Part shown: positions 804 through 57,582 of the stretch, one piece after another | Layout: every line of letters begins with the position of its first letter | Position numbering within the stretch: the stretch's first letter is position 1 | Assembly: GCA_964016885.1 (NCBI GenBank) | Contig: OZ024741.1 | Location: 125,736,001-125,800,000 of the forward strand | Direction of reading: 5' to 3' | DNA from: Eledone cirrhosa | Lineage: Eukaryota | DNA: 64,000 nucleotides | Program-made: the position numbers and the translations under genes | The notes under the pieces: generated by a model | Database searches by the model: none | Told to the model about the DNA's origin: nothing | What the model saw: the letters and a program-made list of their open reading frames with translations, nothing else

Positions 804-1036
804 TATGTAGTTTAGAAAGCCACAACAATGCAGATGGGAAATCTCGAGGTAAGAAGTGAGTGAGAAATAGGAGAAAAGTGAAAATGAAAAGTGAAAATGA
901 AAATTTTCATTTTCACATTTCTCCTATTTCTCACTCACTTCTTACCTCGAGATTTCCCATCTGCATTGTTGTGGCTTTCTAAACTACATATTTTACACAT
1001 TTCACAATGCTTCAAGCAAACTTTAACACCCTCTTA
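804..1036 (+). mobile_element. Fold-back PLE 3'-end remnant (palindrome 804-990 plus tail)
   Basis: Near-perfect palindrome centred at 903/904; arm matches 51812-51891, the 3' end of the PLE at 51812-53750; flanked by (TA)n. Confidence 0.8.
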
Positions 1037-1364
1037 TATATATATATATATATATACACATGTATATGTGTATGTGTATATGTACATGTATATGTGTATG
1101 TGTGTGTAGATATATATATATGTATATATATATGTATGTGTATGTGTGTGTGTGTATATATGTATATGTGTATTTGTGTGTGTGTGTGTAGAGAGAGAGA
1201 GAGAGAGGTATATATGTTTGTGTATGTGTATTCCATGTAACCTTATGTTTCCCTATATCTCTCCCTCCACCCTTCATTCAGCCATAGTTTTTCCTTCGTT
1301 CCATTCCTGATTTCTAATTTCCTCCTGCTCCCCTCTTTATCTTTTACTTTATTCCATCATCTTC

Positions 1365-2270
1365 TCTACTACTACTACTACTACTACTATTACTACTCTA
1401 CCACCACCACCACCACCACCACCACCACTACCACCACCACCACCACCAGCATCACCACCACCACCACCACCACCACTACTACTACTACTACTACTATTAC
1501 TACTCTACCACCACCACCACCACTACCGCCACTACCACCACTGCCACCAACACAACCCCCATCACCTCTACTACTAGCACTTTCATCACCAGCACCAGCA
1601 CCACCACTACTACTACTACTACTACTACTACTACTACTATACCACCACCACCACCACCACCGCAACCACCACCGCCACCAACACAACCACCATCACCATC
1701 ACCACCACCACCACCACTACTACTACTACTACTACTACTACTACTGCTGCTGCTACTACTACTACTACTACTACTACTACTACTACTACTACTACTATAC
1801 CACCACCACCACCACCACCACAACCACCACCGCCACCAACACAACCACCATCACCATCACCACCACCACAACCACCACCACCACCACCACCACCACCACC
1901 ACCACCACCACCACCACTACTACTGCTGCTACTACTACTACTACTACTACTACTACTATACCACCACCACCACCACCACCACAACCACCACCGCCACCAA
2001 CACAACCACCATCACCATCACCACCACCACCACCGCCACCACCACCACCACCACCACCACCACCACCACTACTACTACTACTACCACTACTACTACCACT
2101 ACCACTACCACTACTACTACTACCACTACTACTACTACTACTACTACTACTACTACTACTACTACTACTACTACTACTACTACTACTACTACTACCACCA
2201 CCACCACCACTACTACTACTACTACTACTACTACTACTACTACTACTACTACTACTACTACTACTACTAA
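1365..2270. repeat. Compound (ACT)n/(ACC)n repeat with a ~150-170 bp higher-order unit
   Basis: Recurring CGCCACCAACACAACCACCATCACCATCA block near 1673, 1831 and 1992. Confidence 0.9.
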
Positions 2271-2294
2271 TCTACTACAAATATGTCTGTTAGA

Positions 2295-2520
2295 CTCGGT
2301 TGTAAGTTGAATTCCTAGCCGAGCGTTGTATCCTTGAGCAAGTAACTTTATTTCACGTTACTCGTCTACTCAGCTGGTAAAATTGTGTTTTAGGTGTACG
2401 TGTTAAAGGTGTATATATCTGGGGAATGCTCAGCCACTTGCACGCTAATTTCCCGCCAGACACATTCGCTGATCTTACCAACTGCAACGTTCGTCCTCGG
2501 AACCGACGAAGGTCCAAAAC
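2295..2520 (+). mobile_element. CORE-type SINE, diverged
   Basis: GCGTTGTATCCTTGAGCAAG core motif shared with 34065, 60386 and 61285. Confidence 0.55.
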
Positions 2521-2638
2521 GTGCGGACGCGCACGCCCACACACCCACACACATACACGTATGTGTGTCTATATATATATGTGTGCGTGTGTGTGTATAT
2601 TTATACATATATATGAAAATATATATATATCTATATAT

Positions 2639-2836
2639 ATAGGAAAAAAGTATGACCCCGACGGCAGAGCTCAAGCCGTTTCGACGGCTATTTCTGGACT
2701 AAATTAGAATTTTTAACGGCTTGAGCTCTGCCGTCGGGGTCATACTTTTTTCCTATTTCCAACTCTACTACCCTAAGTATTGAGTACTCTGGTGCGTTAT
2801 GGTCCATCTGGTTCCTTACCACAATTCCTTTGTTTT
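2639..2836 (+). mobile_element. Fold-back mini-element, family A
   Basis: Arms 2639-2680 and 2715-2756, then an 80-nt tail; (TA)n flanks; homologous to 2864-2960 and 56669-56858. Confidence 0.8.
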
Positions 2837-2863
2837 ATATATATATATATATATATATATATA

Positions 2864-2960
2864 TAACGAAGGAGGCAAATGTATGACTAAATTCAATTTA
2901 GTCCAGAAATAGCCATCGAAACGGCTTGAGCTCTGCTGTCGGGGTCATACATTTTCCTAT
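2864..2960 (+). mobile_element. Family A remnant
   Basis: Inverted tail tip ATAACGAAGG followed by GTCCAGAAATAGCCATCGAAACGGCTTGAGCTCTG. Confidence 0.7.
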
Positions 2961-4566
2961 ATATATATATATATATATATATATATATATATATATATAT
3001 ATATATATATATATATATATAAATGTATAGACATATATATATATATATTTACAAACACACACACACACACACATATTTATATATACACACACACACACAC
3101 ACGCACACACACATATATATATATACGGGGGTGGGTGTAGTGTATTTATTATTTAGGTTTTTACTTTCTTATTCTGTTCCTGACGTTGAACACTTACTGA
3201 CGTCATTGATAGTTTTATATAGATTCCTTATTTATGTTACCCATTATATACCCATTTTCTCATTACCGTATATATATATATATATAAATAAATATATATA
3301 TATAAATATATATATATATATATATATATATATATATATATATATATATATATATATATATATATATATATATATATACATGTGTGTGTGCATGTGTGTG
3401 TGTATATATATATATACACACATTATCTATATATATATATATTCATATATATACATACACATATATATGTATATATGTATATATGTATTTATATATTATA
3501 TATATATATATATATATATATATATATATATATATATATATATATATATATATATATATATATATATATATATAGAGAGAGAGAGAGAGAGAGAGAGAGA
3601 GAGAGAGAGGGAGAGAGAGAGATAAGGCGAAAGAAAGAGGATGAAAATCAAACAACACTAACACAATCAACCCCACTCCCAGTCATCACCCCGTCTTCGC
3701 CGCATATCTATCTTCCTCACTTATTTCAGATTTATCTACGTGAACGTATAATTTCCCGTTGTGTCCAAGAAAAGTGTTTACACATACACACACTCGCACA
3801 CACACGCACACACACACACACACACACATACACACGCACGCACACACACATACATATATATATATATATATATATATATATATATCTAAATATATATGTT
3901 GGTATATATATATATATATATATATATATACCGACATATATATTTATATATACACGCATATATCTAAATATAGATACATATGCATACAACCCCCCCCCAC
4001 ACACACACACACACTTGCCCCTACATATATATATATTTATATATATATATATACATATACGTGTGTGCTTCTTGGCTGCGTGTGTGTGTATGTGTATATA
4101 TATAATGCTGTATCTGTGCGCTCCCGATGCAGCACCAGATGGAAGATCTCATTGATTTCGTACTATCGTTCATAAGCAGACGTTTGTAATGTTATAACTG
4201 TGGTAACAAGAGACTCCTGCATAGTATTAGGTATACATATACAAAGGAAAGAAATTCCATAAGGGAACATGAGGAAAGAAGGAAACAAAAAAGGAGGGAA
4301 AACAAACAATCACAGAAAATAACGAACGAAACAGTCACGGAGCATAGAAACTTCTTGGTCGCCCTGGCGATCGAAATCCCATTGAACATATCCAGGGCCG
4401 GCAGACGACGGTGTATGGAACGTTGTATTTGTTTCGTTGATCTTCATCTGTGTTTGATTTTATATTTTCTTACTTCTTTTCTTGTGTAGCTTTGTATATT
4501 TTCCCACACAGACCTATACGCATACGCGCACACACACACGTGCACTCAAAGATGCATATCTATCTA

Positions 4567-55535: not shown

Positions 55536-56465
55536 TTAATATTTTTTTAAGGCAACGCTTGTAATAACTCTAGTTAAACAGGATATATATTAATAATAAA
55601 TTATCGTTGTAATGTAATTAGATTATGTAATTGTTATTATAAATTATCTTATAAATATTAGTGTAAGATGTATAAAAATATTTTCAGACTTTTAATATAA
55701 TGTGTGTATATACAGGATGTCCCCCAAAAATATATACACACTTCAACAGCATTCTAATAACTATTGCCTATACAGGTAATCAAAGTGTCAATCGAATGTT
55801 AGTTTCGTGTTTTAACAGTACAAATTTACAATACACACATAAAACCAGTGTATATACATACATGAGTGTGTATACACATACATGAATGTGTATATACAAT
55901 ATATATGTATATATATATAGACACATATATTCACGGTGCAACGGAACATTAAAATATAGATGCGGGGGGGGGTATATATAGGGGCGCTGGGGATAAAGGA
56001 GTGTAAAGCGTAAGTGTGTAATTGATATATTGAAGGAGAGGAGCGTGCAGCGATAGAGTAACAAATATATAGAGAGGGGGAGAGATGGTATTGAAGGGGA
56101 GGAGTGCAAAGCGAAAGAGTAAGAGAGATATATATAGAGACGGAACAGATAGAGAGAAACAGGCGTAAGTAACAGTGGAAGAGATATAGAGAGAGGGGGT
56201 AATAAATAAATGGAAATATAAGTGTAACAGTATAAGAGATATATAGAGAGGGGGAAATGTGTTATTGAAGGGGAGGAGTGTAAAGTGAAAGCGTAAGATA
56301 TATATAGAGAGAGGGGGAATAGTATATATATATATATATATATATATATATATATATATATATATATATCAACACTTACTCTGATTGGTTGAAAATTAGC
56401 CAATGACATACGATCACCACCACCACGGCTATCCCCGGAAAATTTATGAAGAAGTTACGCATATA

Positions 56466-56520
56466 TGTTAGAACACGAAAAGTGAACATTCTGTTGTTTC
56501 ACACTTTTCGTGTTCTAACA
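56466..56520. repeat. 19-bp inverted repeat between TA tracts
   Basis: TGTTAGAACACGAAAAGTG / CACTTTTCGTGTTCTAACA. Confidence 0.85.
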
Positions 56521-56668
56521 GATATATATATGTGTGTGTAGAGAGAGAGAGAGAGAGAGAGAGAGAGAGAGAGAGAGAGAGAGAGAGAGAGAGAGAGAGA
56601 GAAGAGAGAGAGAGAGAGAGAGAGAGAGAGAGAGAGAGAGAGAGAGAGAGAGAGAGAGAGAGAGAGAG

Positions 56669-56858
56669 ATGTTTAACCTCGAGGGCAGAGCTCAAGCCGT
56701 TTCGACGGCTATTTCTGGACTCAGAAATAGCCGTCAAAACGGCTTGCGCTCTGCCGTAGGGGTTAAACATTTTTATATTACCCACTCTACTACCCTAGGT
56801 ATTGAGTACTCTGGTGCATTATGGTCAATCTGGTTCCTTACCACACTTCCTTCGTTAT
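56669..56858 (+). mobile_element. Fold-back family A copy
   Basis: Arms about 56669-56716 and 56722-56770, plus a tail homologous to 2757-2836. Confidence 0.8.
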
Positions 56859-56877
56859 ATATATATATATATATATA

Positions 56878-57142
56878 TATCACAAAAAGAAAGAGAATCA
56901 GTGTTGCGACGAATGGAATTTATTGGACACATTACAATCGTTTCTCTACCGACCAACTCGGGGCACGATCGTTGTGATGATCGAGGCACGATCGATCTGA
57001 AAATCGCAAGGGCCTCAGATACGTCTTGCTTCTACGAAGCAGATTTTCCAAATTTCTTTTTGTGATATCACACTTTGCTCTGTGAGAGCATCGAGTGCTC
57101 AAACGGCCTACCGCATACGGACGCTCTAAGCATCCAACACCA
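56878..57142 (+). mobile_element. Family E copy (long inverted arm, short forward arm, tail)
   Basis: Homologous to 53789-54154. Confidence 0.8.
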
Positions 57143-57194
57143 TATATATATATATATATATATATATATATATATATATATATATATATATATC

Positions 57195-57410
57195 AAGTAA
57201 GTATGTTTTGAAACAGTGAGCGAGTTTGAAATTAGAAAATATATAGCTTTCACCGTATTTTTAACTAAAGGAATTTTAGCTTGATAACGGGGTTTAGAAC
57301 CCTCAGATAAATGGAAAAAGATGAGTATTGACTAAAAGATGAGTATTAACTAAAATTCCTTTAGTTAAAAATACGGTGAAAGCTGTGAAAGCTATATATT
57401 TTCTAATTAT
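57195..57410 (-). mobile_element. Fold-back relative of the 46667 element
   Basis: Shared GGAAAAAGATGAGTATTGAC and AAATACGG(C/T)GAAAGCT; terminal arms. Confidence 0.7.
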
Positions 57411-57419
57411 ATATATATA

Positions 57420-57582
57420 TTCTCCTATGTAGAGTACTTAATATCGAAGTAGAGATTCAATATTCATTTTATCAAGGCATTTTATCAATAGTGAGTCTTG
57501 TTTACTCTGGAGTTTCACCTGTTTATCACATCTGGCGAAACTCCAGAGTAATAAGGCTCACTATCCAGCCTTGATAAATTAA
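57420..57582 (-). mobile_element. Fold-back mini-element carrying an HHR 3' half
   Basis: Arms about 57468-57519 and 57534-57578; GAAACTCCAGAGTA. Confidence 0.6.

What the first reader, a model, noticed from the sequence alone, without database searches (positions are those of the whole stretch)
804..57582. About 15 short non-coding fold-back elements (inverted arm + forward arm + unpaired tail) inserted in (TA)n
Seen at 804, 2639, 8912, 13902, 37010, 39188, 43466, 44004, 45505, 46667, 53789, 56669, 56878, 57195 and 57420. All share one asymmetric design, mostly between TA tracts, and many carry an HHR. Within a family the outer endpoints are fixed while the inner junction varies (E: 43466, 53789, 56878; A: 2639, 56669). 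The coding PLE at 25332 has the same geometry. Inference: these are products of paired, oppositely oriented priming events with heavy 5' truncation, or non-autonomous mini-PLEs. Standard pipelines would probably call them MITEs.
Basis: partly seen in the sequence, partly recalled or inferred. Interest (0 to 1): 0.72.

Follow-up and report, generated by a model that had tools for sequence, protein, structure and literature searches.

The report
Shrunken Penelope retrotransposon insertion hairpins
These short DNA hairpins in TA repeats are real, but they are most likely heavily shortened insertions of Penelope-type retrotransposons, a known structure that is unusually dense here and easy to mistake for miniature DNA transposons.

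Summary
The fold-backs are real: all 15 have an inverted arm pair and a one-sided tail, and 12 of 15 tail-less ends abut a TA tract. They match the published Penelope-like element (PLE) insertion structure of inverted 5'-truncated copy, forward copy and tail, with both copies cut short. Direct links in the window: 804 shares its terminus with a coding PLE; an unlisted 54-nt element consists of the two ends of coding PLE 29637-33433; 37010 has a 15-nt target duplication and splits a PLE ORF. Hammerhead cores occur in 5 of 15 and all read outward, as in coding copies. Arms mostly group by locus, not by side, and junctions differ, so both arms look freshly made at each insertion; movement as a unit is not supported. 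The geometry, junction palindromes, opposite-strand hammerhead pairs and TA targeting are all in print. Residual interest: arms are more symmetric than independent truncation predicts (7 of 17, P about 0.0005), and four families keep a near-constant longest arm, a signal lost when coding relatives are added. New members of a known kind; interest 0.3.

The parts
807..1034 (+). Family B fold-back: arms 807-890/904-987, 13-nt duplication at the centre, 47-nt tail
   Evidence: 83/84 arm identity; 91% over 70 nt to the end of coding PLE 51812, same TA boundary
2642..2835 (+). Family A fold-back: tail-less arm about 71 nt, tail-side arm 39 nt, 82-nt tail
2866..2957 (-). Family A member not in the finding: both fixed ends kept, tail internally deleted
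8915..9070 (+). Family G fold-back: tail-less arm about 46 nt, tail-side arm 17 nt, 93-nt tail
13902..14130 (-). Fold-back with 59-nt tail on the left; hammerhead core at 14039 (+) in the tail-less arm
25332..28970 (-). Coding PLE: ORF 27012-28343, arms 25332-25897/28309-28870, 100-nt tail on the inverted copy, hammerhead cores at 25430 (-) and 28772 (+)
   Evidence: 2 differences in 562. No Pfam hit for this ORF; 23 homologs at E<=1e-10; of three scanned, one has a sub-cutoff GIY-YIG match. RT and GIY-YIG motifs read by eye.
29637..33433 (+). Coding PLE (family K): ORF 31487-32962 with RT and GIY-YIG, inverted arm 29637-31192 interrupted by another repeat, 59-nt tail, hammerhead cores at 30366 (-) and 33172 (+)
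   Evidence: 4 differences in 959
37009..37767 (+). Fold-back with a SINE-like repeat in its left arm and a 36-40-nt tail, flanked by a 15-nt target duplication (36994-37008 / 37768-37782, 14/15 identical), inserted into another PLE ORF
39188..39721 (-). Family H fold-back: 68-nt tail on the left, 98-nt arms, 270-nt spacer, hammerhead cores at 39315 (-) and 39662 (+)
   Evidence: relative at 54170-54285
43467..43919 (-). Family E fold-back: 182-nt arms, 9-nt loop containing a short duplication, about 80-nt tail on the left
44004..45091 (+). Inverted copy 44004-44403, short forward copy with tail (about 44396-44589) and long forward copy with tail (about 44590-45091): partial tandem plus inverted copy; hammerhead cores at 44288 (-) and 44715 (+)
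45382..45455 (-). Family G member not in the finding: 40-nt arm joined to the last 32 nt of the tail, no palindrome
45506..45888 (-). Fold-back: 65-nt tail on the left, about 150-nt arms, 4-nt loop, U3-A8 minimal hammerhead-like fold near 45765
46535..46588 (-). 54-nt element not in the finding: tail end and tail-less end of coding family K joined head-to-head through a 2-nt overlap
46669..46940 (+). Family F fold-back: 115-nt arms, perfect palindromic centre, 40-nt tail
51812..53750 (-). Coding PLE (family B): ORF 52508-53749 with RT and C-terminal GIY-YIG, ending at a TA tract at the same point as the 804 arm
53792..54153 (+). Family E fold-back: 5-nt loop, internal deletion in the tail-side arm, 80-nt tail
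56669..56855 (+). Family A fold-back: 49-nt arms, 4-nt loop, about 85-nt tail; GA tract on the left
56881..57141 (+). Family E member: tail-less arm about 173 nt, tail-side arm 12 nt, 77-nt tail
57194..57407 (-). Family F member: 37-nt tail on the left, tail-side arm about 116 nt, tail-less arm about 60 nt, 19-nt duplication at the junction
57421..57585 (-). Fold-back: 39-nt tail on the left, about 55-nt arms, 14-nt spacer; no relative or hammerhead found, PLE status inferred from geometry only

Best explanation
Each element is one insertion of an endonuclease-bearing Penelope-like retrotransposon in which both copies were cut very short. The GIY-YIG domain cuts both strands in AT-rich or (TA)n DNA (published in vitro for the anole element PAc; inferred here). 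Each freed target end primes reverse transcription at one of two fixed internal start sites, one at the arm end and one 36-100 nt further on at the tail end (published for PAc; here inferred from fixed outer ends). The two cDNAs grow towards each other, stop early, often at about the same template position, and are joined head-to-head through short microhomology or slippage (inferred from junction sequences). The product is inverted arm, forward arm and tail, with fixed outer ends and a locus-specific inner junction. Shown here: geometry, kinship with coding PLE ends for two families, outward hammerhead polarity, one target duplication, and by-locus arm similarity. Not shown: the enzymatic steps, or why the two copies often stop together.
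For: 804 and coding PLE 51812 share a terminus at the TA boundary. 46535-46588 consists of the two ends of coding PLE 29637-33433. Hammerhead-like cores in arms read outward, as in the two coding fold-backs; the descriptor gave 14 hits on the two real strands and 0 on complemented and reversed controls. 37010 has a 15-nt duplication and its two flanks, translated separately, continue one PLE reading frame. The tail may be on the longer or the shorter copy: lengths the tail-less arm is longer by more than 15 nt in 8 of 17 short loci (37010 only by arbitrary spacer assignment) and in coding 25332, the tail side is longer in 2 of 17 and in coding 29637, and two loci (45382, 46535) have no tail-side arm. 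Family E arms differ by 4/94 and 4/91 within a locus against 8-17 between loci; family F by 3/115 and 1/55 within against 11/100 and 5/30 between. The first tail bases match the TA phase for 3-4 nt in 7 of 13 elements, as target-assisted priming would give. PAc cuts and extends both strands from two start sites that bound the tail (PMC11167929).
Against: Arms are equal within 15 nt in 7 of 17 loci against 1.9 expected if lengths were independent (P 0.0005; P 0.002-0.018 at other thresholds; with one locus per family median P 0.006, maximum 0.12), so strictly independent truncation is wrong. Family A is ambiguous in the arm test: 56669 differs 5/39 within the locus and 5/33 between loci. Ten of 15 listed elements lack a complete hammerhead core, and only one (804) has a coding relative in the window; the rest are assigned by geometry or family. 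Tails are mostly longer than the published 30-40 nt (2 of 12 are 40 nt or less). Arm lengths were set by hand and some spacers are unassigned.
Confidence: 0.6

Rival explanations
1. Same PLE origin, but a single priming at the tail end followed by snap-back self-priming: the truncated cDNA folds on itself and is copied back to the arm end, where it is resolved into the target. Asymmetric loci arise by later deletion of part of the palindrome.
For: Excess of near-symmetric arms with 0-14-nt loops; short duplications at the junctions of 804, 43466 and 57195; self-priming was proposed for PLE junction palindromes (PMC3846280) and endonuclease resolution for the tail (PMC8557442).
Against: It predicts that the tail-side arm is never shorter. 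That fails in at least 7 of 17 short loci and in coding 25332 unless each suffered a deletion, and 45382 and 46535 have no tail-side arm.
Confidence: 0.2
2. Non-autonomous mini-PLEs: a few master hairpin elements are copied as whole units by PLE proteins and then decay by deletion.
For: The longest arm is nearly constant in four families with only short members (E 194/169/173, F 116/116, A 71/73/53, G 46/40; P 0.0005 among 10 loci). Non-autonomous PLE derivatives are described (PMC8557442; bioRxiv 10.64898/2026.07.22.740005).
Against: No two of the 10 family loci share a junction. Arms group by locus in E and F. The constancy signal vanishes when the coding relatives of B and K are added (P 0.72). 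The described non-autonomous forms are head-to-tail.
Confidence: 0.12
3. MITEs or other DNA-transposon derivatives that target TA.
For: Short, non-coding, inverted arms, TA flanks. Several elements have neither a hammerhead nor a coding relative in the window.
Against: The inverted repeat is not terminal on one side, and the 36-100-nt tail is conserved between copies. The one readable target duplication is 15 nt. Ends are shared with RT/GIY-YIG elements. Hammerhead cores are present.
Confidence: 0.05
4. Assembly or library fold-back artefacts at TA tracts.
For: Palindromes beside long microsatellites are error-prone (general knowledge); raw reads were not available.
Against: Arms carry private substitutions, one arm of 37010 holds a later SINE-like insertion, inversions stop at element ends shared by independent loci, and a target duplication is present.
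Confidence: 0.03

Closest known systems
Canonical EN+ Penelope-like element insertions (Penelope/Poseidon, Neptune, Nematis, Hydra, Naiad): inverted 5'-truncated copy, forward copy, tail (PMC8557442; PMC3846280; PMC2377424)
   Same: Head-to-head inverted copy, one-sided tail on either end, partial tandem (44004), palindromic junctions, (TA)n targeting, hammerhead in the terminal repeat, target duplication where readable.
   Different: Both copies are truncated before the ORF, leaving hairpins of about 155-760 nt and two end-only joins of 54 and 74 nt; tails are mostly 47-100 nt, not 30-40; target duplication 15 nt against 8-10 nt in A. vaga; about 18 such short loci from about 11 families in 64 kb.
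Dual minimal hammerheads 100-700 bp apart on opposite strands in Schistosoma mansoni, ascribed to truncated PLEs (PMC4209133)
   Same: Same arrangement as 39188, 44004, 37010 and 45505; the U3-A8 core variant matches 45505.
   Different: The parts of that paper I read do not describe arms, tails or junctions; two thirds of the elements here have no complete hammerhead.
PAc (Anolis Poseidon) in vitro mechanism (PMC11167929)
   Same: Two internal RT start sites bounding the tail, AT-rich cleavage, both strands cut and extended; this accounts for two fixed outer ends.
   Different: Head-to-head joining was not addressed in the parts read; different host and probably different clades.
Non-LTR retrozymes and non-autonomous PLEs (bioRxiv 10.64898/2026.07.22.740005; MRC1 in PMC8557442)
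   Same: Short, non-coding, PLE-related, often with a type I hammerhead.
   Different: Those are head-to-tail tandem units; these are head-to-head with locus-specific junctions.
LINE-1 twin priming inversions (recalled, no call)
   Same: Both target ends prime reverse transcription and the products join by microhomology.
   Different: L1 twin priming inverts non-overlapping parts of one RNA and leaves a poly(A) end; here both copies repeat the same terminal sequence and start at fixed internal sites.

Membership tests
EN+ Penelope-like element insertion | ORF with RT and GIY-YIG endonuclease, in the element or in a relative sharing its ends | tested here: inconclusive
   Met through relatives for 804 (ORF 52508-53749) and unlisted 46535 (ORF 31487-32962), both with Pfam RVT_1 and GIY-YIG matches, one of each pair below the curated cutoff. 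No coding relative in the window for the other 14 listed; tblastn found no PLE protein match inside the short elements.
EN+ Penelope-like element insertion | Inverted 5'-truncated copy head-to-head with the forward copy | tested here: met
   15 of 15; polarity fixed by hammerhead direction in 5 and by the coding relative in 1
EN+ Penelope-like element insertion | Tail extension at one end only | tested here: met
   15 of 15; conserved between copies in A, E, F, G, K; 36-100 nt, longer than the published 30-40 nt in most
EN+ Penelope-like element insertion | Type I minimal hammerhead in the terminal repeat, sense strand | tested here: inconclusive
   5 of 15 with a core, all outward; 2 possible halves; 8 none; Rfam negative. 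Cleavage not testable.
EN+ Penelope-like element insertion | AT-rich or (TA)n target; variable-length target duplication | tested here: met
   12 of 15 tail-less ends at TA tracts; 15-nt duplication at 37010; unreadable inside TA tracts
MITE (TIR DNA transposon derivative) | Inverted repeats at both termini | tested here: not met
   A conserved tail lies outside the repeat on one side
MITE (TIR DNA transposon derivative) | Short fixed target duplication of a transposase superfamily (lengths recalled: 2, 3 or 8-9 nt) | tested here: inconclusive
   15 nt at the one readable site; not readable in TA tracts
MITE (TIR DNA transposon derivative) | Uniform length and internal sequence among copies | tested here: not met
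   Family E 453/362/261 nt with different junctions
Non-LTR retrozyme / non-autonomous PLE unit | Head-to-tail tandem units each with a complete hammerhead | tested here: not met
   Head-to-head; only 44004 has a partial tandem, and its short copy begins downstream of the hammerhead
Non-LTR retrozyme / non-autonomous PLE unit | Many genomic copies with the same internal junction | not testable with these tools
   Host genome not available; no shared junction among the 10 loci of four families in the window

The most novel reading that the evidence does not exclude
The hairpins are pairs of run-off ('strong-stop') cDNAs. PLE transcripts start inside the upstream pseudo-LTR and so carry the RT start sites near their 5' end as well. 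Priming there from both target ends would give two short cDNAs ending at one family-specific point, joined head-to-head. This would explain the symmetry excess, the near-constant longest arm in families A, E, F and G, and the fact that in 44004 the inverted copy ends within about 10 nt of where the long forward copy begins. The junctions would then be a genome-wide fossil map of PLE RNA 5' ends or RT stops and a direct test between twin priming and self-priming. Searches found no paper making this case, in a library that lacks most subscription journals. Against it: family A arms stop inside the putative hammerhead stem II, which favours stalling at structure, and the constancy is lost when coding relatives are included.
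Probability: 0.2. Interest if true: 0.6.

Novelty: new member of a known kind. Interest (0 to 1): 0.3.

Why it matters
PLE integration is still not fully resolved. ORF-less insertions that keep both fixed ends and one junction are the simplest record of it, and this genome seems to hold very many, so junction statistics could test twin priming against self-priming. In practice they are candidates for misannotation as MITEs or miRNA hairpins: the Rfam scan gave many sub-threshold miRNA matches, some on these arms. If transcribed they would form double-stranded RNA; siRNAs from inverted Penelope copies are reported in Drosophila (PMC3681739). The architecture itself is published, so a PLE specialist would recognise it at once.

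Tried and rejected
Rfam scans of the whole window (150 of 163 matches listed) and of 39000-40100 showed no hammerhead family, only sub-threshold hairpin matches, so hammerhead calls rest on my own descriptor and folds. A strict descriptor found 3 hits and the relaxed one 14; the latter missed the 45505 variant and the true 37010 core, and 2 of its 14 hits (6915, 37377) are low-scoring and probably chance. Only 2 of 8 hammerhead-region folds had z below -2. 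The mirror-repeat control was confounded by low complexity. A motif shared among tails of different families looked plausible by eye but was not significant: best 8-mer in 5 of 12 tails, P 0.39; rejected. An absolute family-specific arm limit is rejected once coding relatives are added. tblastn and six-frame translation showed no coding remnant in the short elements or their spacers, so the spacers of 39188 and 37010 could not be assigned to an arm. Pfam gave nothing for ORF 27015-28343 or 38036-38695, and the pairwise protein comparison matched only the endonuclease region weakly (E 0.005), so no PLE clade is assigned. The family F alignment was poor and was replaced. Initiator-like motifs at junctions were noticed by eye, judged too weak in AT-rich DNA and not tested. 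The prokaryotic genome, phage and plasmid collections were not searched as irrelevant; the metagenome and viral collections stayed unchecked. No supplements were read.

Full report
Setting. The window is AT-rich eukaryotic DNA with 144 TA tracts of 8 nt or more, a large simple-repeat block and several retroelement remnants. It resembles cephalopod DNA to me, but that is recalled and was not tested. Four regions encode PLE-type proteins: 27012-28343 (-), 31487-32962 (+), about 37783-38698 (+, broken) and 52508-53749 (-). Two of them match Pfam RVT_1 and GIY-YIG. The 27012 ORF has no Pfam match; it has 23 homologs, 22 unnamed, and one of three scanned shows a weak GIY-YIG match.

Observation. 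A split-and-align search found an inverted arm pair at all 15 sites, with unpaired sequence on one side. Local inverted clusters number 24 against 0-4 in 30 block shuffles; the mirror control (36 clusters) was uninformative. The tail-less end, defined by homology and not by the tract, touches a TA tract in 12 of 15, against a 2.2% background. Counting both ends gives 26 of 30, but tail ends were partly set by the next tract, so that figure is partly circular. Comparing the 165 non-repetitive sequences that abut TA tracts confirmed families E and A and added F (46667, 57195) and G (8912, 45382), plus unlisted members at 2866, 45382, 46535 and 54170.

Identity. Four lines tie the elements to PLEs. 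First, 804 ends at the same point as coding element 51812-53750, with 5-6 differences in 70 nt. Second, 46535-46588 is only the tail end and the tail-less end of coding element 29637-33433, joined head-to-head. Third, hammerhead-like cores in 13902, 37010, 39188, 44004 and 45505 read towards the outer end, as in both coding fold-backs; the descriptor gave 14 hits on the real strands and none on two control strands. Fourth, 37009-37767 is flanked by a 15-nt duplication with one mismatch, and its left and right flanks continue one PLE reading frame, so it is a single insertion with a 36-40-nt tail. The remaining elements are assigned by geometry or family only; 57420 is the weakest.

Units or one-off products. 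No two of the 10 loci in four families share a junction. In family E the two arms of a locus differ at 4 of 91-94 positions and arms of different loci at 8-17; family F gives 3/115 and 1/55 within against 11/100 and 5/30 between; family A is mixed, with 0/39 within 2639 but 5/39 within 56669. Both arms therefore look regenerated at each insertion, although homogenisation between arms is not excluded. Junctions read by eye against family references show overlaps of 1-6 nt (45382, 56878, 46535, 2866, 44004, 57195), none at 56669, a 2-nt insertion at 2639, a perfect palindrome at 46667, and short duplications at 804, 43466 and 57195.

Mechanism. The tail may sit on the longer or the shorter copy (25332 against 29637; 56878 against 57195), and two loci lack a tail-side arm altogether. 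This is natural for two priming events and awkward for simple snap-back. In 7 of 13 elements the first 3-4 tail bases match the TA phase at the tail-less end (two of the seven are family E). The anole element PAc cuts and extends both target strands from two internal start sites that bound the tail (PMC11167929, parts 1-2 of 4 read). Against full independence, arms are equal within 15 nt in 7 of 17 loci, with 1.9 expected (P 0.0005). This holds at thresholds of 5-20 nt and with three long elements added, but weakens to a median P of 0.006 (maximum 0.12) with one locus per family. 44004 was left out of these counts as composite, lengths were set by hand, and the loci were first picked as fold-backs. 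The longest arm is nearly constant in four all-short families (P 0.0005 among 10 loci) but not once coding relatives are added (P 0.72). I favour twin priming with a shared stopping point (0.6) over snap-back plus deletion (0.2), mobile units (0.12), MITEs (0.05) and artefact (0.03).

What is known. Craig et al. 2021 (PMC8557442; abstract and passages) describe the inverted 5'-truncated copy, the 30-40-bp tail at either end and (TA)n targeting. Arkhipova et al. 2013 (PMC3846280; parts 1-4 of 5) describe inverted pseudo-LTRs, solo pseudo-LTRs, 8-10-bp duplications and junction palindromes, and propose self-priming. Cervera and de la Pena 2014 (PMC4209133; parts 1-2 of 4) report minimal hammerhead pairs 100-700 bp apart on opposite strands as probable truncated PLEs, and the U3-A8 variant. 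Schostak et al. 2008 (PMC2377424; part 1 of 4 and passages) place the transcript start in the upstream pseudo-LTR and note inverted repeats of variable size. I also saw passages of PMC8969392, PMC13282606 and PMC3681739, and part 1 of 5 of bioRxiv 10.64898/2026.07.22.740005. Arkhipova 2006 and Evgen'ev and Arkhipova 2005 were not seen and may describe such short copies; no supplements were read, and those of PMC8557442 and PMC4209133 may bear on this. Searches found no paper treating ORF-less PLE hairpins as a class or quantifying arm symmetry.

Verdict. The feature is real and is best read as a dense set of extremely truncated PLE insertions from about 11 families. It is a new instance of a known structure, with longer tails than usually reported and an unexplained coupling of arm lengths that a genome-wide count could turn into a test of PLE integration models. 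Interest 0.3; the run-off cDNA reading has probability about 0.2 and would merit 0.6.

Noticed in passing
window 9093-9280: Segment between TA tracts whose left part carries a leftward hammerhead core (9163) and whose right part resembles the family K tail-less end reading rightwards: a possible head-to-head join of two different PLE families, or two adjacent insertions.
   Followed up: partly
window 54579-55582: Unlisted fold-back: 213-nt arms (209/211), 531-nt spacer, about 47-nt tail; no hammerhead hit or protein match.
   Followed up: partly
window 56370-56521 and 61641-61970: Two further candidate fold-backs with one-sided extensions ending at TA tracts (19-nt and about 50-nt arms).
   Followed up: no
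window 25039-25248, 42182-42802, 458, 39039, 39968, 61294: Single, non-palindromic PLE-like ends or hammerhead cores; 25039 is a relative of coding 25332 with a homologous tail.
   Followed up: partly
window about 36950-39170: A broken PLE ORF interrupted by the 37010 element, ending in a hammerhead-bearing end at a TA tract, with a second partial copy of that end at 39732-40086.
   Followed up: partly
window 16430, 34887, 37038, 46043, 49130, 57949 and weaker copies: About 180-nt dispersed repeat, SINE-like by recall; one copy sits in the left arm of the 37010 element.
   Followed up: no
window 14231-14879, 14890-15771, 29713-30227: Repeat family with CTAG at one end and internal 37-nt tandem units, in AT/TA sites; one copy interrupts the inverted arm of coding PLE 29637-33433. 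Helitron-like by recall.
   Followed up: no
window 58150-58184, 61991-62029, 62044-62090: Short segments at TA tracts sharing a 13-nt terminal motif, possibly ends of another TA-targeting repeat.
   Followed up: no
window 4560-6350, 11840-13450 and 16800-23450: Two decayed LINE-like coding remnants (class by recall; no Pfam hit for the pieces scanned) and a 6.6-kb GTT/GGT simple-repeat array.
   Followed up: no
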